Translations under genes and position numbers: made by a program
Origin: a virus
Lineage: Duplodnaviria; Heunggongvirae; Uroviricota; Caudoviricetes
Strand: one strand, 5' to 3'
Virus record (IMG/VR): IMGVR_UViG_2695420427_000005
Length of the DNA stretch: 11,880 nucleotides
The notes under the pieces: model-generated
The model's database searches: none
What the model was told of the DNA's origin: nothing
What the model saw: only the letters and a program-made list of their open reading frames with translations
In this document: positions 1 through 9,129 of the stretch, piece after piece
How positions within the stretch are numbered: the stretch's first letter is position 1
How the letters are laid out: each line of letters begins with the position of its first letter

Positions 1-682
1 TATTCTCCCGCTCATGTTTAGCGCCGCTGAATGCCACCGCCGGAATAACAATTTGCCTGTCAAAAGGCTGATCGTCATAAATCCTGACGGTAATGGTCCC
101 TGATGGCCACCGCTCCGGTGCCCGGGAGTCCCGCGGAAAAGCCTTACCCACTGTTTTGACTATATCGCCTTCAATCTGGTTGGCTGACAGTTTCCCCTTA
201 ATCTGACAGTTCTCATTAATTGTGACATTGTTGAGCGTCCCGGCGTTCGCATTCACACTGCCACTGATATCTGCATTTTTAGCGGTCAGTTTTCCGTCCG
301 GTGTCAGGGAAAATGCCGGAGGATTACCGCCGCTGGTAATGGTGGGAGCCGTCAGATATTTCAGGAACACTTCATTCATGAATATCTGATCGCCCTGACC
401 AACAAACATCGGCTTTGTGTTGCCATTCGCAGGATTAATCATCGCAATCCTGTCTGCCGCCAGCAGCACCTGACTCTGCATTCCTGCTGGCGTATTCTCA
501 ATACCGGCACCGATACCCGCAATATAAAGGCGTCCGTCCTTCATCTGTTGCAGCTTCACAGCCCACATGCTGTTCAGATTATTATTTGTATCAACCTGAA
601 CCTTCTGTATCTGCTGGATTGCCGCACTCTGGTCTTTCAGTTTCTTATTGACAGTCTGCGTGATTTCATTGCTGACATCCGT

Positions 683-1330
683 AATGGACGTCCTGATTTC
701 AGCCAGGTCAGGCGCAAGCTGACCGTTATCAATCTGCGTCCACAGCTCCTGAGCCAGATGGGTTTTCCCTATCTCGCCTTTGAAAAAATCCAGATAGCCT
801 GATGCATCATCACTCGGCTGACCGACAGCCTCCACGAATGCCGATTTGCCAACGGTGTTCACACTGCGAACGTAAAAATAATAATCATGGCCCGGTTTGA
901 TATTGATACTGGCGGCTATCCAGTACAGCGCCGTACCAAGATAACGCGCGCTGGTTTCAACCTGCCTGATATCGGCAATCCGCGTTTCCGAGAACCAGAA
1001 CTCAAACTGTACCGTCGGATCATAAACCGCAAGATGCGGTATGGCGGTTATCTGAAAATAGCCCGGCGTCAGCTCAATCCGCGACGGTGCTGCCGGTGCG
1101 GCAATCCGGAACGATACCGACGCCGGATCGCCCTGCTGTCCCCACGCATTTATCGCCCGGACCGTCAGCGTGTAACGCCCCAGCGCCAGTTGCCTGAAGC
1201 GGTATGTGGTTTCCGTCGTCCGGGCCGTGCTGACCAGCCGCTCACTGCCGTCATCCGCTGTTACGGTCAGACGGAGCAGGAAGCTCACGCCCTTCACCAC
1301 CTTCGGCGTGTCCCAGCGCGCCAGCACCTG
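683..1330. repeat. Copy A of an approximately 650-bp imperfect direct repeat inside J (lambda-like allele, in frame with the J body and C-terminus)
   Basis: Direct comparison with 1332..1982: roughly 93-95 percent identity by eye over the first ~430 bp, including a ~117-bp perfect stretch, then strong divergence over the last ~215 bp. Encodes the FN3-like region [17 protein letters not shown] ... [39 protein letters not shown]. Confidence 0.85.
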
Positions 1331-1331
1331 A

Positions 1332-1982
1332 AATGGACGTCCTGATTTCAGTCAGGTCAGGCGCAAGCTGACCGTTATCAATCTGCGTCCACAGCTCCTG
1401 AGCCAGATGTGTTTTCCCTATCTCTCCTTTGAAAAAATCCAGGTAACCTTCCGCATCATCGCTCGCCCGACCGACAGCCTCCACGAATGCCGATTTGCCA
1501 ACGGTGTTCACACTGCGAACGTAAAAATAATAATCATGGCCCGGTTTGATATTGATACTGGCGGCTATCCAGTACAGCGCCGTGCCAAGATAGCGTGCTG
1601 TGGTTTCAACCTGCCTGATATCCGCAATCCGCTTTTCCGAGAACCAGAACTCAAACTGTACCGTCGGGTCATAAACGGCAAGATGCGGCGTTGCGGTTAT
1701 CTGAAAATAGCCCGGCGTCAGCTCAATCCGCGACGGTGCTGCCGGTGCGGCAATCCGGAAGGTGGTGGTGGCAGGTTCACCCTGCTGGCCATAGCTGTTT
1801 ATCGCCCGCACCGTCAGGGTGTATTCCCCGAGCGGCAGGCCGCTGAAACGGTGCTCCGTGTCTGCGGTGATGGCGGTGGTCACCAGTCTGGCATCCGTTC
1901 CCTTACCACTGGTCAGGCGCAGACTGAAGCGCACACCCTTCACCACCCGCGGCGTGTCCCATTTCGCCTGCGCCAGATACTG
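1332..1982. repeat. Copy B of the direct repeat inside J (divergent allele, one nucleotide out of register with flanking J sequence)
   Basis: Same J segment as copy A in a different allele ([35 protein letters not shown] ... EIRTSI). Offset between copies is 649 bp, so the two cannot share a frame. Corresponds to track ORF 1251..1946, which runs into copy A out of frame and stops at 1251. Confidence 0.8.
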
Positions 1983-3923
1983 GCCGTCAGGTGCTGCACT
2001 GCCGGTGGGATGACGCTGTTCAGGGAACCTGACTGCGGCTCAAAGCGGGCACCGTTATCCACGATGGCTTCTTTTTCCAGTACGTGCTGCACCGCCGTGA
2101 TGGCAAAGGTGCCGTCCGTGTTTTCCCGGACGGAGACACAGCGGAACAGGCGACGGCGCAGTGACGGCAGGGAGAGTCCCCACACCCCGTATGTCTCCAC
2201 ACCATCAGGCAGGGTACTGACCTGTATCCGGTCCGGCGCGGGGTGTTCGGTGATGTCCACACTCACCGGCTTACCGCTGCCGTTAATCAGGTTCACCGTG
2301 GCGGCACCGGTCTCCGGAAGTGTCACTTCACGGTCCAGCGTCAGAGTGCGGGTGGCAGCATCAATGGACAGGACACGTCCGCCGGTCAGGGTCCCGGCAT
2401 AGTCGTTATCACAGATTTCAATGATGTCACCGGGTGTGTGCCGCAGCCCCTGAGACCCGAGCGTGAAATCCACCGTCTGCGTTTCCAGCAGTTCGGTCTT
2501 TATCACCCACAGTCCGGCACGGTGGGCCTGACCGCGGCTGGTACAGCCGAACGCGTCCATCTTCAGCAGGTTGCGTCCGTAGCGCAGTATGGCTTCCGGG
2601 TCTTCCACCAGTTCCGTGGAGGTCTGCCAGCCGTTCTGCGGGTCGGTATAATTCACCTCCACCGCCGTGTGCCGGTCCTTCAGGGCACTGAAGCTGTAGC
2701 GGAAACCCACGCCGTTATCATCCACCACCACATCGCTGTTGGTGTACGGCCACACCACATCCGACGGGCGGTCCTGAACAAACGTCAGCGTCTGGCCGTT
2801 CCATACCGGCATACAGCGCATCGCCGAGCAGAAATCACTGAGCACGTCCCATGCCTTACGCTGTTGTGCCAGGTACGCATTGAAGGTCATCCGCGGCTCG
2901 GTCTCCCCGAAACTATCCGGGACCGTCTGGTCGCAGTACTGCCCGATGGCATACAGCGCCCACTTGTCCACATCCGCCGCCCCCAGACGTTTTCCCATGC
3001 CGTAGCGCGGGTGAGTCAGCATGTCCCACAGACACCAGGCCGGATTGTTGCTGTATGCCGGTTTCAGGCTGCCGTCCCAGATACCACTGTACGTGCGTTT
3101 TTCCGGGTCATAGTTTGACGGCACCTGGATGATGCGACCGCGGATATGGTAGTTCACCGTCATCTGCTGGCCGCCGAACTGCTCCGCATCCACCTGCAGC
3201 CCCACAATGGCCGTGTTCGGGTAGCACTGTTTCACATCGATGATTTCGGTGTATGACGACCACAGCGTCTTATTCTGCAGCTGGTCCGTGGTGCTGTCCG
3301 CTGTCTCCCGGACCATCCGGATGTTAAAAGGACGGGGAGGCAGATTATCCAGAATCACCGACGCCAGAAACTGCGAGGTGGTCTTGCCGTTAATGGTGAC
3401 ATCCTTTTCTGTCACCCAGTTACCGTTACGCTGTAACTGAATCAGCAGGCGGACGGATGTCGGGTTTCGGTCACCCTTTGACGTGGTCTGCACCAGTGAC
3501 TGCACCCCGAAGGTAACCCGCAGGCGGTCAATGTTCGCGGACGTAATGGTGCGCGTCACCGGTTTTGCCTTCGTCACTTCCACGCCCAGTCCGGTTTCAG
3601 CACCGGAGGACTCAAAGCCTTCCGGTGGTGTCTGCTCCTGCTCCCCGGCGCGTCAGACCGCCGTCACACCGTGTATCACGGGATTACCGTCCGTGTCCGT
3701 CAGCGGGGTTTTGTTCACCAGGATACTCTGCAGTCCCTTCACCGGACCTTCTATCAGTCCCTCACCAATCGCATCAATCACGCTCATCATCTGCGTGGAT
3801 TTGAGATTATCCTTCGCCTCACGAGGCGTGTGTGCCTTACCGCCACCTTTTCCCATACAGCCTTCCCCTGAATAAATTAACCGCCACTTGCCATTCCGTA
3901 CAGAAGTCGGATATCCTTCGCCC

Positions 3924-3995
3924 GAAAAGCATGAAACACATTTCTGCCATGCTAAAGAGAAACCCCGGTATCAGCAGATACCGGGGTTTTCTTTC
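3924..3995 (+). ncRNA. Candidate small RNA 1 (about 70 nt), antisense to the tail operon; weak promoter, strong terminator
   Basis: Possible sigma70 promoter TTGCCA (3888..3893), 18-bp spacer, TATCCT (3912..3917); ends at the 3961..3995 hairpin. The only ORF through it (MKHISAML...) reads across the terminator stem and has no SD. Confidence 0.2.
3961..3995. terminator. Intrinsic-terminator-like hairpin with U-rich tails on both strands (possibly bidirectional)
   Basis: Perfect 12-bp stem AACCCCGGTATC (3961..3972) / GATACCGGGGTT (3977..3988) with 4-nt loop AGCA. Plus strand follows with TTTTCTTTC; minus strand follows with TTTCTCTTT. Confidence 0.55.
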
Positions 3996-4061
3996 ATGCC
4001 CACCGATAATCCTGTTGGTTAAAACCGGTAATGGCATAAAAATTCTGAATATCTTCACATT

Positions 4062-4089
4062 TTCACAAACTGACTGTGGCGCGTATAAT
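4062..4089 (+). promoter_or_regulatory. Near-consensus sigma70 promoter, TTCACA-16 bp-TATAAT, firing away from J toward I (antisense to the tail operon)
   Basis: -35 TTCACA at 4062..4067, 16-bp spacer, -10 TATAAT at 4084..4089, in an AT-rich context; predicted start near 4096. Confidence 0.45.
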
Positions 4090-4095
4090 TTCTCT

Positions 4096-4193
4096 GCGTT
4101 AATTTTTTTGTCGTGATATAAGAATAATTCCTTACACTTAATCTTCGTAACTCTCCCGCAGTTCCTGTCCGCGATCACTGCGGGATTTTTTTA
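4096..4193 (+). ncRNA. Candidate small RNA 2 (about 95-100 nt) between promoter 4062..4089 and terminator 4154..4192
   Basis: Promoter and terminator bracket about 100 nt with no plausible start codon plus RBS. The sequence is AU-rich with a 3' hairpin and poly-U tail, the usual architecture of Hfq-type sRNAs. Confidence 0.3.
4154..4193 (+). terminator. Rho-independent terminator, plus-strand orientation
   Basis: 9-bp stem TCCCGCAGT (4154..4162) / ACTGCGGGA (4177..4185) followed by TTTTTTT (4186..4192). The minus-strand side has no U-tract, so it is unidirectional. It lies just 3' of the I stop but points the wrong way to terminate I. Confidence 0.55.
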
Positions 4194-4199
4194 TTCTTT

Positions 4200-4880
4200 T
4201 TACCCCTGCCGCCCGATAACCACGACCTTTCCGCCCCCGCCTTCATCACGGGTGCTGATGTCCTGGGATATACGGCGGGAGCCAACCAGCATTTCCCCGT
4301 AAGGCACCGGCATCGGGTTCCCCTGGGCAATCATGTTATCCAGTGAGGAAAAGTACGTGTTCTGTCTGCCGTTATCCGTTGCGCGGTAATCCGGTGTTTT
4401 TGCCTTCGGGGCCAGCATCTGGGCCACACCGCCCAGAATCATGCTGGCTCCAAGTGAAAACAGCATCGTGGTGGCAGAAAAACCACCGGCTGCCAGGGCT
4501 GAACCCCATAACGCCATTGATGCCCCGGCAGTGAAGAAAGAGCCCACGATGGCTGCCGCCCCCAGCACAATCTGCAGTCCACCCTTTCCGGCCCCGGCCA
4601 GTCGCGGCACAATGTGGATGACCGTTCCCTCACCCAGCTGTTCGTGAAGACGGGCGTACACCGCCTCCGGTGCCGTGTCATAACCGGCAATACGTATCTG
4701 GTACCAGCCTTCGTTCATCTGACGGCGAAAGCCCGGCATCTGCATCGACAGGGCGCGAATGGCTTCCGCTGCCGTGTTCACATACAGGCTGAGGCGGCGG
4801 CCAAATCGTTGTAAATCCCCGTGAAGGCAGATGCGTGCCAGTGGCGGTGACGCCAGACTGAATGCGTTCGTCGTTGCCAT
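4200..4880 (-). CDS. I: Tail tip assembly protein I
   Basis: 226 aa, MATTNAFSLASPPLARICLHGDLQRFGRR ..., with a Gly/Ala-rich hydrophobic segment; collinear with lambda gpI (223 aa). Position between K and J. Confidence 0.9.
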   Translation of the reverse strand: MATTNAFSLASPPLARICLHGDLQRFGRRLSLYVNTAAEAIRALSMQMPGFRRQMNEGWYQIRIAGYDTAPEAVYARLHEQLGEGTVIHIVPRLAGAGKGGLQIVLGAAAIVGSFFTAGASMALWGSALAAGGFSATTMLFSLGASMILGGVAQMLAPKAKTPDYRATDNGRQNTYFSSLDNMIAQGNPMPVPYGEMLVGSRRISQDISTRDEGGGGKVVVIGRQG

Positions 4881-6230: not shown

Positions 6231-6559
6231 CAGTTCACCACCTGCTTAAACTCCGCGCTGAACTCAACGCGCAACATCCCGACCCGCGCAGACCACCCGG
6301 CACAGGTCACCTTTATCTGCCGGTATGCATAGGGTGGCTTCCACAAAAATGCCTTCCAGCCACCGTGCTCTGCCAGGAACGCTTCCAGATGCCGGGCCTC
6401 CTCCCGGGTCACGGAAAGCGTCACCCTGTATGTTTTCAGGTCAGCATTCAGCCCTGCCGCCATACGCTGTGAGTACCCGTCACCAAAACGCACTTCACGC
6501 ACCGATGGCTGCGAGTTCACCTCCATATCCGGCTTCACTTTCCAGCGAAAGGTTTTCAT
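6230..6559 (-). CDS. M: Minor tail protein M
   Basis: 109 aa, MKTFRWKVKPDMEVNSQPSVREVRFGDGYSQR ...; same length and sequence pattern as lambda gpM. Overlaps the H stop by 4 nt. Confidence 0.92.
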   Translation of the reverse strand: MKTFRWKVKPDMEVNSQPSVREVRFGDGYSQRMAAGLNADLKTYRVTLSVTREEARHLEAFLAEHGGWKAFLWKPPYAYRQIKVTCAGWSARVGMLRVEFSAEFKQVVN

Positions 6560-9129
6560 CCACCGCTCCCTGATAACATACCGCCATCACGCAACTGCAG
6601 CCGGAGTTCATCCTGTGCCCCCTTGCGGGCCATCTCATACACCGCTTTCATCAGCTGCGGCCCTGCCCGCCCGTTGGGGCCGTCGTTCTGAATCACCACG
6701 TGATTGTTCTGATTAAAATTAATGCCTTCCGCCCGCCGCATCTGCGCCGGACTTCCGGCACCGCCGACATAACCACCTTCCGCATAGCCCCGCATCAGGC
6801 GGTACAGATTGCCGACACCAATCCGGCTGGTCGCCTCCTTCGTGAAGACAAACTCCCCGCGATGAACAATCCCCGCAGGTTCATATTTACCCCCCGTCCC
6901 CGTAAATCCCCCGGTCGCGAAATGGAAGTTCGCCGCCGCAGCCTGAATGGCCGTCCCCGTGGAGGCAGACGCACCACCACCGAAAGCACCGCCAATGGCG
7001 CTGCCGATACTCCCGACTATCCCCACCATCGCCTGCTTCAGAAAAATCTCTGTCAGCATGGACAGCACAGAACGGGTGAAACCACGCCAGTTCTGTTCGC
7101 TGCCGATCAGCATCGCTGCCATATTCTGTGCAATACCGTCAAAGGTCTGCGTGGCCGCGTTTTTAACCTGCGAAAAACTGTCCGTCGCACTTTCCGCCCA
7201 CTCGCCCCAGCCGGACTTCATCCCGGCCATCCAGCTTCCACGAAGCTGCTCCTCCGCAGACCAGGTGTTCTTCAGTGCAGATGTGGCCTTCGCCAGCGCA
7301 GCCGGATTATCACCGTACACCTCACGAAGGCGCTGCTCTTCCGACTCCCGCTGCGCCTGACGGTCGGTGAGTCCGCGGGCTTTTGCGCTGATTGCCGCCT
7401 GCTTCGCGCTCTGCTGCTGTTCAAACCGCGCCGCCTGCTGTGCCAGCTCATTCAGCCGTTTCTGGTGTTCAATCTTGTCGCCCAGCTCAGCCAGCTGGCG
7501 TTTGTACTCCAGCGTTTCTTTCTCATGGGCCAGCAGGGATTTTTCCTGCTCAGATAACTGCCGTTTCGTGGCGGCCTCTTTCAGGACCACATACTGATTT
7601 TCCGCTTTCCATAAATCACGGCGCTGCTGGCTGATTTTTTCATTCGCACCGCTGTGCTTCTCCAGCGTCCTGAGCTCAGTTTCAAGCGCCAGCAGGGCTG
7701 CATGCGCCTGGTCTTCCTGGCGCTCACCGGCAGACACCTTCACACCGGACGGCTTTTTCTGCGTCGACTCATAATCCTTTTTTGCCGACGCCATCAGCGT
7801 GTTGTAATCCGCCTGCAGGATTTTCCCGTCTTTCAGGGCCTTATTCAGCTCTTCCTGCCGGGCGGTATATTTCTCCAGTGGCGTCAGCAGGCGCTCATAC
7901 GCCTTCTGCGCCTCTCCGGTATACTTCAGCTGTGACGACTCACGCTCAGCCCTGTCCCTTGCCGCCAGTTCACCGGCTTTTTCCATATCCGACTGCAGCG
8001 TTGCCGCTGCCAGACCCAGACGGGCATTTTCCCGGTCATCCCATGCGCCCTGAAGGTTGGCCCGGAAAGAGGAGGTTTTACCGCGGCGCTGGCTCCGACT
8101 CTGGTACCACTGCCATTTTTTATCCGCCTCATCAAATGCCTTCTGCGCACTGGCGAGCATATCCGCTGAGGATTCCGGACGACCGATATCCAGAATGGCA
8201 TCCCACATCGATTTGAATGCCTTCCCTGTTTTATCCGCCCAGGTCTCCAGTGTTCCCATGTTTTCTTTCAGGCGACGGGTCTGCTCATCAAAGCCTTTCG
8301 TGGCGATATCGTTCGCCGCCTGCAATGCCCCGGCCTCGTCTCCGGAACGCTGCAGCTGTGCAACATACGCAATCTGCTCTGCCGTCACGTTACGGAACTG
8401 GCGCGCCATCGCCATCAGTCCCGACGTCGGGTCAGTGGTCAGCTTCCCGAAGGCTTCAGCGACTTTATCCACCTCCACACCGGATGCAGACGCAAAACGC
8501 GCGACACTCTGGTTGATGGCATCAAACTGTTCACCACCACGCACACCGGCATTCACCAGGGCTGCCAGTGACTCTCTCGCCTGGTTAAACGTCAGCCCTG
8601 CTGCCTGCCCGGCTCTTGAGAGAGTCAGCATACGATCGGCAGTCAGTCCGGACTGATTACCGGAAAGAACCAGGGTTTTATTAAACGCTGAAAGCGTGGA
8701 ATCTCCCTGGTACCAGGCGTACACCAGTGCACCTGTCGCCACCGCCAGCGAGGTGACCCCGACCATCGGCAGGGTGATCGCATCGGCAAGCCCCCTGAAC
8801 ATGGGGATCATCCCGCCGAAGGAGTCCTTCACCTGACCGCCCTGTTGCAGCAGGATCAGCCAGGGATTCTGACCACCGGCAAGCTGCGTGGCGATATCCG
8901 TAAACTGTGCGGGCAGGGTTCGCATGGCCGCTTTATACTGCCCGACGGAAATCCCGGCTTTTTGTGCAGCCAGCGCCTGGCGGCTCAGGCCCTGTTCAAC
9001 AGCACTGGCGGTTTTTCTGGCGTCGGTATCCAGACCTGAAAAATGACGCCTTACCCGGCTCATCTGCTCATCGAAACGGACAGCATCCAGACTCAGGTCA
9101 ATAACAAGATCACCAACCGGCTGGGACAT
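6556..9129 (-). CDS. H: Tail tape measure protein H
   Basis: 857 aa (lambda gpH is 853 aa), starting MSQPVGDLVIDLSLDAVRFDEQMSRVRRHF ...; long coiled-coil-rich middle and Gly-rich C-terminal region; lies between G-T and M. Confidence 0.92.
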   Translation of the reverse strand: MSQPVGDLVIDLSLDAVRFDEQMSRVRRHFSGLDTDARKTASAVEQGLSRQALAAQKAGISVGQYKAAMRTLPAQFTDIATQLAGGQNPWLILLQQGGQVKDSFGGMIPMFRGLADAITLPMVGVTSLAVATGALVYAWYQGDSTLSAFNKTLVLSGNQSGLTADRMLTLSRAGQAAGLTFNQARESLAALVNAGVRGGEQFDAINQSVARFASASGVEVDKVAEAFGKLTTDPTSGLMAMARQFRNVTAEQIAYVAQLQRSGDEAGALQAANDIATKGFDEQTRRLKENMGTLETWADKTGKAFKSMWDAILDIGRPESSADMLASAQKAFDEADKKWQWYQSRSQRRGKTSSFRANLQGAWDDRENARLGLAAATLQSDMEKAGELAARDRAERESSQLKYTGEAQKAYERLLTPLEKYTARQEELNKALKDGKILQADYNTLMASAKKDYESTQKKPSGVKVSAGERQEDQAHAALLALETELRTLEKHSGANEKISQQRRDLWKAENQYVVLKEAATKRQLSEQEKSLLAHEKETLEYKRQLAELGDKIEHQKRLNELAQQAARFEQQQSAKQAAISAKARGLTDRQAQRESEEQRLREVYGDNPAALAKATSALKNTWSAEEQLRGSWMAGMKSGWGEWAESATDSFSQVKNAATQTFDGIAQNMAAMLIGSEQNWRGFTRSVLSMLTEIFLKQAMVGIVGSIGSAIGGAFGGGASASTGTAIQAAAANFHFATGGFTGTGGKYEPAGIVHRGEFVFTKEATSRIGVGNLYRLMRGYAEGGYVGGAGSPAQMRRAEGINFNQNNHVVIQNDGPNGRAGPQLMKAVYEMARKGAQDELRLQLRDGGMLSGSGG

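What the first reader, a model, noticed from the sequence alone, without database searches (positions are those of the whole stretch)
3888..3995. Perfect 12-bp GC-rich hairpin with U-tracts on both strands; possible second sRNA or an attenuator between I and J
The hairpin AACCCCGGTATC-AGCA-GATACCGGGGTT is flanked by A-rich sequence upstream and T-rich sequence downstream on both strands, so it could terminate transcription in either direction. On the plus strand, together with a weak promoter (TTGCCA-18-TATCCT), it would define a ~70-nt RNA. On the minus strand it sits inside the late tail operon just upstream of J, where it could attenuate J expression unless Q-type antitermination is active.
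Basis: inference. Interest (0 to 1): 0.5.

Follow-up and report, generated by a model that had tools for sequence, protein, structure and literature searches.

The report
Terminator hairpin between phage tail genes
A strong hairpin between two tail genes of a lambda-like prophage is most likely an ordinary transcription stop signal that such phages keep just before their host-recognition gene J, not a new small RNA.

Summary
The hairpin is real. It has a 13-bp perfect stem (3960-3972/3977-3989), an AGCA loop, and A/T arms spanning 3954-3995. It is the only such inverted repeat in the window.

It lies in the 343-bp spacer between tail genes I and J, which are on the minus strand. It sits 105 nt upstream of the J start and about 75 nt upstream of the promoter of a neighbouring plus-strand sRNA. 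I identify that neighbour as PasB (EcOnc22-24 family, 4109-4192).

The hairpin scores as an intrinsic terminator on both strands. Comparison favours the tail-operon strand. An unrelated alternative spacer module (E2348/69, Sakai Sp11/14/15) carries a different hairpin that scores only on that strand. Lambda itself, Gifsy-2, T1-like and Pseudomonas phages also carry a terminator directly after I: 37/39, 51/60 and 35/55 distinct loci, against 0-1 on the opposite strand.

So this is the local version of a conserved I|J terminator, pushed away from I by the pasB moron.

The proposed ~70-nt plus-strand sRNA is unsupported. Its promoter match is at chance level and no published Hfq peak maps there.

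No transcript-end data could be consulted. The prophage is defective because J is a pseudogene. Ordinary element, low interest.

The parts
3954..3995 (.). Full palindromic element: A-tract, 13-bp perfect stem, AGCA loop, T-tract. Terminator-like on both strands.
   Evidence: d-score +33 (plus) and +22 (minus).
3963..3986 (.). GC-rich core hairpin CCCCGGTATC-AGCA-GATACCGGGG.
   Evidence: dG -18.5/-19.1 kcal/mol. No variation seen, but the 57 related loci were selected by exact match to this core.
3941..3987 (.). 47-nt segment absent from rare natural variants ('A-short'). It is bounded by TTTCT direct repeats (3941-3945 and 3988-3992), so the end points are ambiguous by 5 nt.
   Evidence: L103/L155, L154/L156.
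3857..4032 (.). 'Module A': the J-proximal 176 nt of the I-J spacer, one of several alternative non-homologous segments at this position. It contains the hairpin and, on the minus strand, the J 5' leader and ribosome-binding site.
   Evidence: Present in 1446/5426 E. coli genomes; pi 0.0014.
3888..3917 (+). Not supported as functional.
   Evidence: 9/12 match; number of such matches in the window is at chance level.
4062..4089 (+). Promoter of the neighbouring sRNA gene pasB (TTCACA-16-TATAAT, 11/12).
   Evidence: Conserved in all spacer versions that keep pasB's own promoter.
4109..4192 (+). PasB / EcOnc22-24-family sRNA, placed by homology to the 83-nt E2348/69 PasB. The primary 5' end may be near 4096. 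Terminator 4168-4184 plus T7.
4200..4781 (-). Tail assembly gene I (Lambda_tail_I). A longer 4200-4880 ORF overlaps K.
1940..3856 (-). 5' part of host-specificity gene J. It is a pseudogene here: in-frame stop at codon 68 (3653-3655) and later frame breaks.

Best explanation
The hairpin is an intrinsic (factor-independent) transcription terminator. It is the local representative of a terminator that lambda-type tail modules keep between gene I and gene J on the tail-operon strand.

On the minus strand, an RNA polymerase that has not been modified by the late antiterminator would transcribe I and the antisense of pasB. It would then form the 10-13-bp GC-rich stem and release at the UUUCUCUUU tract (about 3954-3960), 105 nt before the J start codon. 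A Q-modified polymerase is expected to read through during lytic growth.

Because the element is a near-perfect palindrome with A and T arms, it should also stop plus-strand (antisense-J) transcripts at about 3990-3996, before they reach the pasB promoter. It therefore acts as a two-way insulator at the edge of the pasB moron.

Shown here: the structure, the positive terminator scores on both strands, its position, and the positional conservation of a tail-strand terminator after I in many phages. Inferred: that termination actually occurs, its efficiency, read-through by Q, and the selective benefit. In this particular prophage J is already a pseudogene, so the element may be a relic.
For: (1) Strong, statistically exceptional hairpin with U-tracts on both strands.

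(2) Terminator score is positive on both strands (plus +33, minus +22; the Sakai Sp12 variant gives minus +34). The score is my implementation of the d'Aubenton-Carafa hairpin-plus-T-tract score and is used only for comparison.

(3) The alternative, non-homologous J-proximal module of the same spacer carries a different hairpin. It occurs in E2348/69, Sakai Sp11/14/15 and others. The hairpin is CAGGCACC..GGTGCCTG + TTGTTTTT. It scores +12 to +29 on the tail strand and -43 on the other strand.

(4) Lambda (15463-15482), HK629, Gifsy-2, T1, Sephi301i and Pseudomonas phage BR143a all have a hairpin plus T-tract on the tail strand in their short I-J gaps.

(5) Survey of IMG/VR loci, counting a tail-strand terminator (d >= 10) within 160 nt after the I stop. 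Lambda-I relatives: 37/39 distinct segments. T1-I relatives: 51/60. Pseudomonas-I relatives: 35/55. The opposite strand gave 0, 1 and 0; a coding control gave 0, 0 and 1. Stem sequences differ between groups.

(6) The spacer has moron-like composition (41.7% GC against 57-60% in the flanks). Morons are described as carrying their own promoters and terminators (PMC3594210).
Against: No transcript 3'-end data could be consulted, so termination is not shown.

The T-tracts are interrupted by C. The tool's own consensus scan did not list the site, probably because its stem extension may swallow the T-tract.

Natural spacers without any tail-strand terminator exist: the 47-nt deletion variant in 2 loci and the sodC-type spacers in 5 of 68 loci. 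The element is therefore dispensable.

If Q-modified polymerase ignores it, the benefit for the phage is unclear.

No covariation test is possible for this hairpin because the stem is invariant. For the alternative hairpin, the single compensatory pair is not significant (310/500 shuffles).

The survey loci are close relatives within each group and are not phylogenetically independent.
Confidence: 0.6

Rival explanations
1. It is the terminator of an independent ~70-nt plus-strand sRNA, starting near 3924 from TTGCCA-18-TATCCT and ending near 3995.
For: A two-hairpin fold followed by a U-rich 3' end is predicted for 3888-3995. The plus-strand terminator score is the higher of the two (+33). 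The 176-nt module is nearly invariant (pi 0.0014 against 0.02 in the flanks), which could reflect constraint on an RNA.
Against: The promoter is a 9/12 match with 18-bp spacing and no extended -10, and such matches occur at chance frequency in the window. The alternative module at the same position has no plus-strand T-tract. No Hfq-CRAC peak is listed in the Sakai Sp12 spacer that carries this module. Only sub-threshold, generic hairpin matches were found in Rfam. No paper prints the sequence.
Confidence: 0.08
2. It acts in the late mRNA as a stability or processing element rather than as a terminator. It could be a 3' protective hairpin for the upstream Z-to-I segment, or a nuclease site that uncouples the decay of I and J.
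For: The hairpin would still form in read-through late mRNA. Positional conservation on the tail strand fits an RNA-level role as well. The Sp12 variant is a perfect 18-bp palindrome.
Against: In almost every phage group the hairpin is followed directly by a T-tract, which a pure stability element does not need. In T1-like phages a -10-like TGTATAATG follows it, which indicates a real transcription-unit boundary.
Confidence: 0.12
3. It is a functionless relic in this locus: a palindrome inherited with a recently spread spacer segment and no longer doing anything, because the prophage is defective.
For: J has an in-frame stop at codon 68 and later frame breaks. The module is nearly identical in 1446 genomes, which fits recent spread rather than long constraint. 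Deletion variants survive.
Against: The same position carries a terminator in many intact phages. Segregating variants lie in the A/T arms; the GC core could not vary in that set, because loci were selected by exact core match. Inducible phages such as ASU11 and the PPompW phages carry the identical element.
Confidence: 0.15
4. It terminates a short minus-strand RNA that starts divergently within the pasB promoter region (about 4075) and ends at the hairpin.
For: A weak divergent promoter can be read by eye (ACGACA-18-AATTAT on the minus strand, 8/12). Both spacer modules place a tail-strand terminator 40-120 nt downstream of it.
Against: The match is below the scan threshold. No minus-strand Hfq peak or RIL-seq partner is reported for the spacer in Sakai or E2348/69. 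Lambda-type phages without pasB have the terminator anyway.
Confidence: 0.04
5. The hairpin lies inside a small protein-coding gene: either the 66-aa minus-strand ORF 3837-4037, annotated as hypothetical gp9c in phage ASU11, or the 61-aa plus-strand ORF 3931-4116.
For: An annotated hypothetical CDS exists in ASU11, and open frames exist on both strands.
Against: No Pfam or PHROG match. No Shine-Dalgarno sequence is visible upstream of either ATG. The natural 47-nt deletion is not a multiple of three. The alternative module lacks both ORFs.
Confidence: 0.02

Closest known systems
Unannotated hairpin in the I-J gap of phage lambda (NC_001416 15463-15482, AAACCGCC-TGCG-GGCGGTTT + TGTCATTT) and its counterparts in HK629 and Gifsy-2
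   Same: Same position (between I and J on the late strand). Same architecture: A-run, GC-rich stem, 4-nt loop, T-tract. Positive terminator score on the tail strand.
   Different: No sequence similarity is evident. The lambda stem is 8 bp, against 13 bp here. Lambda's lies 22 nt after I and 25 nt before J; this one lies 214 nt after I and 105 nt before J because pasB sits in between. Lambda's has only a 3-U run (UUUCACAUAAAAC) after the stem on the opposite strand, so it is probably not bidirectional.
Alternative I-J spacer hairpin of E2348/69 PP6 and Sakai Sp11/Sp14/Sp15 (CAGGCACC..GGTGCCTG + TTGTTTTT)
   Same: Same place relative to pasB and J. Terminator-like on the tail strand.
   Different: Unrelated sequence. 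It sits 42-43 nt before J and has no T-tract on the pasB strand (score -43).
Bidirectional intrinsic terminators of E. coli (named from my own knowledge: Ju, Li and Liu 2019, Nat Microbiol; not checked here)
   Same: A palindromic stem flanked by an A-tract and a T-tract, so that both strands read hairpin plus U-run.
   Different: Those typically lie between convergent genes. Here the flanking genes I and J are co-directional, and pasB is transcribed away from the hairpin.
PasB (EPEC E2348/69) / EcOnc22-24 (EHEC Sakai) Hfq-dependent prophage sRNA
   Same: Same I-J spacer. It is the neighbouring transcription unit.
   Different: The hairpin is not part of it. PasB maps to 4109-4192 with its own terminator at 4168-4192, and the hairpin ends about 75 nt upstream of the pasB -35.
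tR' terminator downstream of pR' in Stx phages, which yields the sRNA StxS in lysogens (PMC7547250)
   Same: An intrinsic terminator inside a Q-controlled late operon that would matter only for unmodified polymerase.
   Different: tR' sits directly behind a constitutively active promoter and so produces an abundant short RNA. No comparable promoter is evident upstream of this hairpin on either strand.

Membership tests
Intrinsic (Rho-independent) terminator | GC-rich stem-loop of about 5-14 bp with a short loop | tested here: met
   13-bp perfect stem, 4-nt loop, core dG -18.5/-19.1 kcal/mol.
Intrinsic (Rho-independent) terminator | U-rich tract directly 3' of the stem | tested here: met
   Plus TTTTCTTTC (T-score 4.15); minus TTTCTCTTT (T-score 3.43). 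Both are interrupted by C. The combined score is positive on both strands. The site was not called by the consensus scan.
Intrinsic (Rho-independent) terminator | RNA 3' ends map to the U-tract, or termination is seen in vitro | not testable with these tools
   No supplementary Term-seq tables are held for the Sakai data set.
Conserved I|J terminator of lambda-type tail modules (defined here from the survey) | Lies between I and J homologues and scores as a terminator on the tail-operon strand | tested here: met
   I = PF06805, J = GpJ domains. Minus-strand score +22. The same holds in 37/39, 51/60 and 35/55 distinct loci of three phage groups.
Conserved I|J terminator of lambda-type tail modules (defined here from the survey) | Sequence homology with the lambda hairpin | tested here: not met
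   Stem sequences differ between the groups surveyed and from this hairpin; no alignment of this hairpin with the lambda hairpin was run. The relation is positional and functional; common descent is not shown.
Bidirectional terminator | Terminator-like on both strands | tested here: met
   Scores +33 and +22.
Bidirectional terminator | Located between convergent transcription units | tested here: not met
   I and J are both on the minus strand, pasB points away, and there is no plus-strand gene upstream.
Hfq-dependent sRNA gene (plus strand, ~70 nt) | Own promoter | tested here: inconclusive
   9/12 match at 3888-3917; the number of such matches in the window is at chance level.
Hfq-dependent sRNA gene (plus strand, ~70 nt) | Detected transcript or Hfq binding | tested here: not met
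   No EcOnc peak is listed with coordinates in the Sakai Sp12 spacer. This is weak, because the Sp12 pasB copy is not listed either.
PasB / EcOnc22-24 sRNA | Overlaps the mapped sRNA (83 nt, E2348/69 1466343-1466261; Northern probes) | tested here: not met
   PasB aligns to 4109-4192 and the hairpin ends at 3995.
Moron boundary element | Extra DNA relative to related phages, deviant GC content, own promoter and terminator | tested here: met
   The spacer is 343 bp against 60 bp in lambda. GC is 41.7% against 57-60%. pasB has its own promoter and terminator. The hairpin itself is better assigned to the ancestral I|J position than to the moron.

The most novel reading that the evidence does not exclude
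The terminator after gene I is a general, so far unnamed checkpoint of lambda-type tail modules. It would set or gate transcription into the host-range gene J and the accessory genes behind it, by partial attenuation even of antiterminated polymerase or by full insulation in lysogens. In about 27% of complete E. coli genomes it has been rebuilt as a palindromic two-way insulator next to the pasB sRNA gene. A still more novel but less likely variant is that the invariant 176-nt module also encodes a second regulatory RNA.
Probability: 0.25. Interest if true: 0.45.

Novelty: new member of a known kind. Interest (0 to 1): 0.22.

Why it matters
By itself it matters little: it is a well-formed terminator hairpin in a prophage.

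Three points have modest value. First, the adjacent sRNA is the known PasB/EcOnc22-24 family, so the I-J spacer of this prophage type can be annotated properly. Second, a terminator directly after tail gene I is positionally conserved from lambda to T1-like and Pseudomonas siphophages, yet it is not annotated in the lambda RefSeq record and I found no paper describing it. It marks a boundary in tail operons that morons (pasB, sodC) exploit as an insertion point. Third, a natural 47-nt deletion variant offers a ready-made control for testing what the element does.

Tried and rejected
- **Rfam.** The gathering search gave no hits. The E-value search gave only sub-threshold, generic hairpin matches.
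- **Exact-pattern scan of species-representative genomes for the core hairpin.** It gave 58 hits. All but Escherichia albertii (L043, whose module A is 100% identical) are in non-enterobacterial taxa and were taken as chance GC-rich palindromes without inspection.
- **Second match per phage record.** This turned out to be the palindrome matching itself.
- **Coding potential.** The ORFs across the hairpin have no Pfam or PHROG family, and the 47-nt indel breaks the frame.
- **Covariation in the alternative hairpin.** Structure is kept in 96% of cells, but the single compensatory pair is not significant.
- **Published data.**
  - The Hfq-CRAC table has no peak in the Sp12 spacer.
  - In the EPEC supplementary files as held (the interaction table is cut), the I/J locus tags turn up only in the expression, sRNA-list and annotation tables, not in the interaction table.
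  - No Term-seq tables are held.
  - HnrS (EcOnc10-12) lies elsewhere in the prophage.
  - Text searches for the hairpin sequences of this element and of lambda found nothing.
  - Searches for a described lambda I-J terminator found nothing relevant.
- **AgvB/AsxR.** An initial idea that the spacer RNA might be one of these was dropped, because they lie downstream of pR', not in the tail region.

Full report
**1. The observation**

The sequence AACCCCGGTATC-AGCA-GATACCGGGGTT is at 3961-3988 as stated. The perfect stem is 13 bp (3960-3972 with 3977-3989). With one bulged G the pairing continues through an A-run (3954-3962) and a T-run (3987-3994).

Folded as RNA, 3950-3998 gives -26.0 kcal/mol on the plus strand and -27.1 on the minus strand. 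The z-scores are near -7.8, and none of 200 shuffles is as stable. It is the only perfect inverted repeat of 9 bp or more (loop 3-8) in the window. Only 1 of 300 dinucleotide-preserving shuffles of the window contains a 12-bp one.

**2. Context**

The window is the tail region of a lambda-like prophage, with the tail genes on the minus strand.
- The tape-measure gene is at 6556-9129, with M, L and K following it.
- Gene I is at 4200-4781 (Pfam Lambda_tail_I).
- Gene J starts at 3856 (GpJ domains).

The I-J spacer is 343 bp (3857-4199), against 60 bp in lambda. Its GC content is 41.7% against 57-60% in the flanking genes. J is a pseudogene here, with an in-frame stop at codon 68 and later frame breaks. 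This particular prophage is therefore defective.

**3. The neighbour is a known sRNA**

The plus strand of the spacer has an 11/12 promoter (4062-4089) and a terminator (4168-4184 plus T7).

The Northern probe used for PasB in EPEC E2348/69 (AATCCCGCAGTGATCGCGGAGCT) matches the window's minus strand at about 4166-4186, mismatched only at its 3' end (GGAGCT against GGACAG). Table S6 of PMC8550237 gives PasB as 83 nt, lying between the I and J homologues. The E2348/69 PasB sequence aligns to window 4109-4192.

The probe for EcOnc22/23/24 of EHEC Sakai (about 85 nt, destabilised without Hfq; PMC4104026) maps to the same part of the I-J spacers of Sp11, Sp14 and Sp15. The three alleles are 73-75% identical.

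The 'first' sRNA implied by the finding's title is thus PasB/EcOnc22-24. The hairpin under study ends about 75 nt upstream of its -35 and is not part of it.

**4. The spacer is a mosaic, and the hairpin belongs to one of several alternative modules**

Alignment of I-J spacers shows a shared pasB part and alternative J-proximal parts.
- **Module A** (3857-4032, with this hairpin). It occurs in the window, SK1144, Sakai Sp12, phage ASU11 and the PPompW phages.
- **Module B** (about 75 nt). It occurs in E2348/69 and Sakai Sp11/14/15. It has an unrelated hairpin, CAGGCACC..GGTGCCTG.
- **sodC-type.** A sodC moron replaces the J-proximal part and the pasB promoter.

Module A is present in 1446 of 5426 complete E. 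coli genomes and is at least 99% identical in nearly all. Among phage records it occurs in only 13, all identical. Among the species representatives that matched the core pattern, Escherichia albertii is the only enterobacterium; the E. coli representative was not among the hits.

Among 57 related loci its nucleotide diversity is 0.0014. This compares with 0.020 in the adjacent 300 nt of I and of J, and 0.11 in the pasB part. All four segregating sites lie in the A/T arms of the hairpin. Whether this reflects recent spread or constraint is unresolved.

Two IMG/VR contigs carry module A without a 47-nt segment (3941-3987) bounded by 5-nt direct repeats. This removes the hairpin and nothing else. 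It is most simply a slippage deletion of the palindrome, and it is a natural knock-out.

**5. Which strand matters**

I scored candidate terminators with a hairpin-energy plus T-tract score. This is my own implementation of the d'Aubenton-Carafa discriminant and is used only comparatively.
- The module A hairpin is positive on both strands: plus +33, minus +22, and +34 for the Sp12 variant.
- The module B hairpin is positive only on the tail-operon strand: +12 to +29, against -43 on the other strand.

The property the two unrelated modules share is therefore a terminator on the tail-operon strand shortly before J (105 nt and 42-43 nt).

The 47-nt deletion variant and the sodC-type spacers have no predicted tail-strand terminator. 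The element is thus common (59 of 68 spacers examined) but dispensable.

**6. The same feature exists in phages without any moron**

- Lambda: the 60-nt I-J gap reads ...GAAACCGCC-TGCG-GGCGGTTTTGTCATTT...ATG(J) (15463-15482). It is unannotated in RefSeq.
- HK629 and Gifsy-2 have the same kind of hairpin 25 nt before J.
- T1, the Tls-like phage Sephi301i and Pseudomonas phage BR143a have canonical terminators in their I-J gaps. In the T1-like phages a -10-like TGTATAATG or TGTACAAT follows before J.
- One Providencia phage, with a 33-nt gap, has none.

I then surveyed IMG/VR loci retrieved with three I proteins. I scored the 172 nt from the I stop and counted distinct sequences.

| Group | Tail strand (score >= 10) | Opposite strand | Coding control |
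|---|---|---|---|
| Lambda-I relatives | 37/39 | 0/39 | 0/39 |
| T1-I relatives | 51/60 | 1/60 | 0/60 |
| Pseudomonas-I relatives | 35/55 | 0/55 | 1/55 |

Stem sequences differ between and within groups (CCGCC/GGCGG, CCCGC/GCGGG, GCGCC/GGCGC, GGCCGC/GCGGCC and others). The conservation is positional, not of sequence.

Two caveats apply. The loci within a group are close relatives, so the counts are not independent events. The score threshold is arbitrary, although the two controls are near zero.

**7. Interpretation**

The hairpin is best read as the local version of a conserved I|J intrinsic terminator on the tail-operon strand. In this prophage type, the pasB moron lies between the I stop and that terminator, so the terminator now lies 214 nt after I.

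From established knowledge of lambdoid Q proteins, polymerase modified at pR' reads through intrinsic terminators. The element would then act mainly on unmodified polymerase, for example in lysogens, keeping stray tail-strand transcription out of J and the accessory genes behind it. No Q gene is in the window, so this step is inference.

Because module A's version is a near-perfect palindrome, it should also stop plus-strand antisense-J transcripts before the pasB promoter. No plus-strand gene lies upstream. This second direction may be a by-product of the palindrome rather than a selected function.

**8. The sRNA reading**

The proposed promoter (3888-3917) is a 9/12 match with 18-bp spacing. 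Such matches are as frequent in the window as in shuffles.
- Sakai Sp12 carries module A (spacer 2,217,392-2,217,732 in NC_002695.2). The published Hfq-CRAC table lists no peak there, after allowing for the roughly 128-nt coordinate offset between assemblies. This is weak negative evidence, because the Sp12 pasB copy is not listed either.
- Rfam gives nothing above threshold.
- No paper in the library prints the sequence.
- The ORFs that cross the hairpin have no family match, no visible ribosome-binding site, and are frame-shifted by the natural deletion.

**9. Verdict**

The 'terminator or attenuator between I and J' half fits the comparative evidence. The 'second sRNA' half does not.

The element is an ordinary kind of thing, an intrinsic terminator, in a position that turns out to be widely conserved among siphophages with lambda-type tail tips. 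I found no paper that names this conserved terminator, but my literature access is incomplete. Actual termination, its efficiency and its benefit remain untested.

Noticed in passing
window 4062-4192 (+): The strong promoter plus terminator unit in the I-J spacer is the PasB sRNA of EPEC (PMC8550237) and is homologous (73-75% identity, same position) to EcOnc22/23/24 of EHEC Sakai (PMC4104026). Table S6 of the 2021 paper notes EHEC homologues for PasA and PasD but not for PasB. Rfam 15 has no family matching it.
   Followed up: yes
window 1-3856 (-): J is a pseudogene: in-frame stop at codon 68 (3653-3655) and the frame breaks after about codon 638. The window aligns to intact J genes in two pieces with about 630 nt extra. 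No E. coli complete genome in the collection matches it above 96.6%.
   Followed up: partly
window 3857-4032 and loci L075-L154, L001, L002, L005, L006, L011, L015: The 176-nt module is about 15 times less diverse (pi 0.0014) than the adjacent coding DNA (0.020), and it sits next to deeply diverged pasB alleles (pi 0.11). Either recent spread by recombination or constraint over the whole segment could explain this; it is unresolved.
   Followed up: partly
L103/L155 and L154/L156 (IMG/VR); window 3941-3987: Two contigs carry a natural 47-nt deletion that removes exactly the hairpin. It is bounded by 5-nt direct repeats. The remaining sequence forms a weak AT-rich hairpin, GCATGAAA..TTTCATGC.
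   Followed up: yes
L009 (889-1601), L144, L147-L149, L159: In some prophages a sodC (Cu,Zn superoxide dismutase) moron lies between J and pasB on the pasB strand and replaces the pasB promoter. There, PasB may be made from the sodC transcript or its 3' region.
   Followed up: no
L161 (T1) 1429-1505; L163 (Sephi301i) 1429-1508: In T1-like phages the I|J terminator is followed by a -10-like element (TGTATAATG / TGTACAAT) about 40 nt before J. This suggests that J starts a separate transcription unit there.
   Followed up: partly
L010 (511-1664): One E. coli prophage has a duplicated J 5' end. An extra minus-strand gene (annotated as an IS66-family TnpB accessory protein) sits between the copies, with another bidirectional-looking hairpin (AAAATCGCC-CGAA-GGCGATTTT) next to J.
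   Followed up: no
L015 (Sakai Sp12) 13490-13524: The Sp12 copy of the hairpin lacks the bulged G, giving a perfect 18-bp palindrome AAAGAAAACCCCGGTATC / GATACCGGGGTTTTCTTT and a better tail-strand T-tract.
   Followed up: partly
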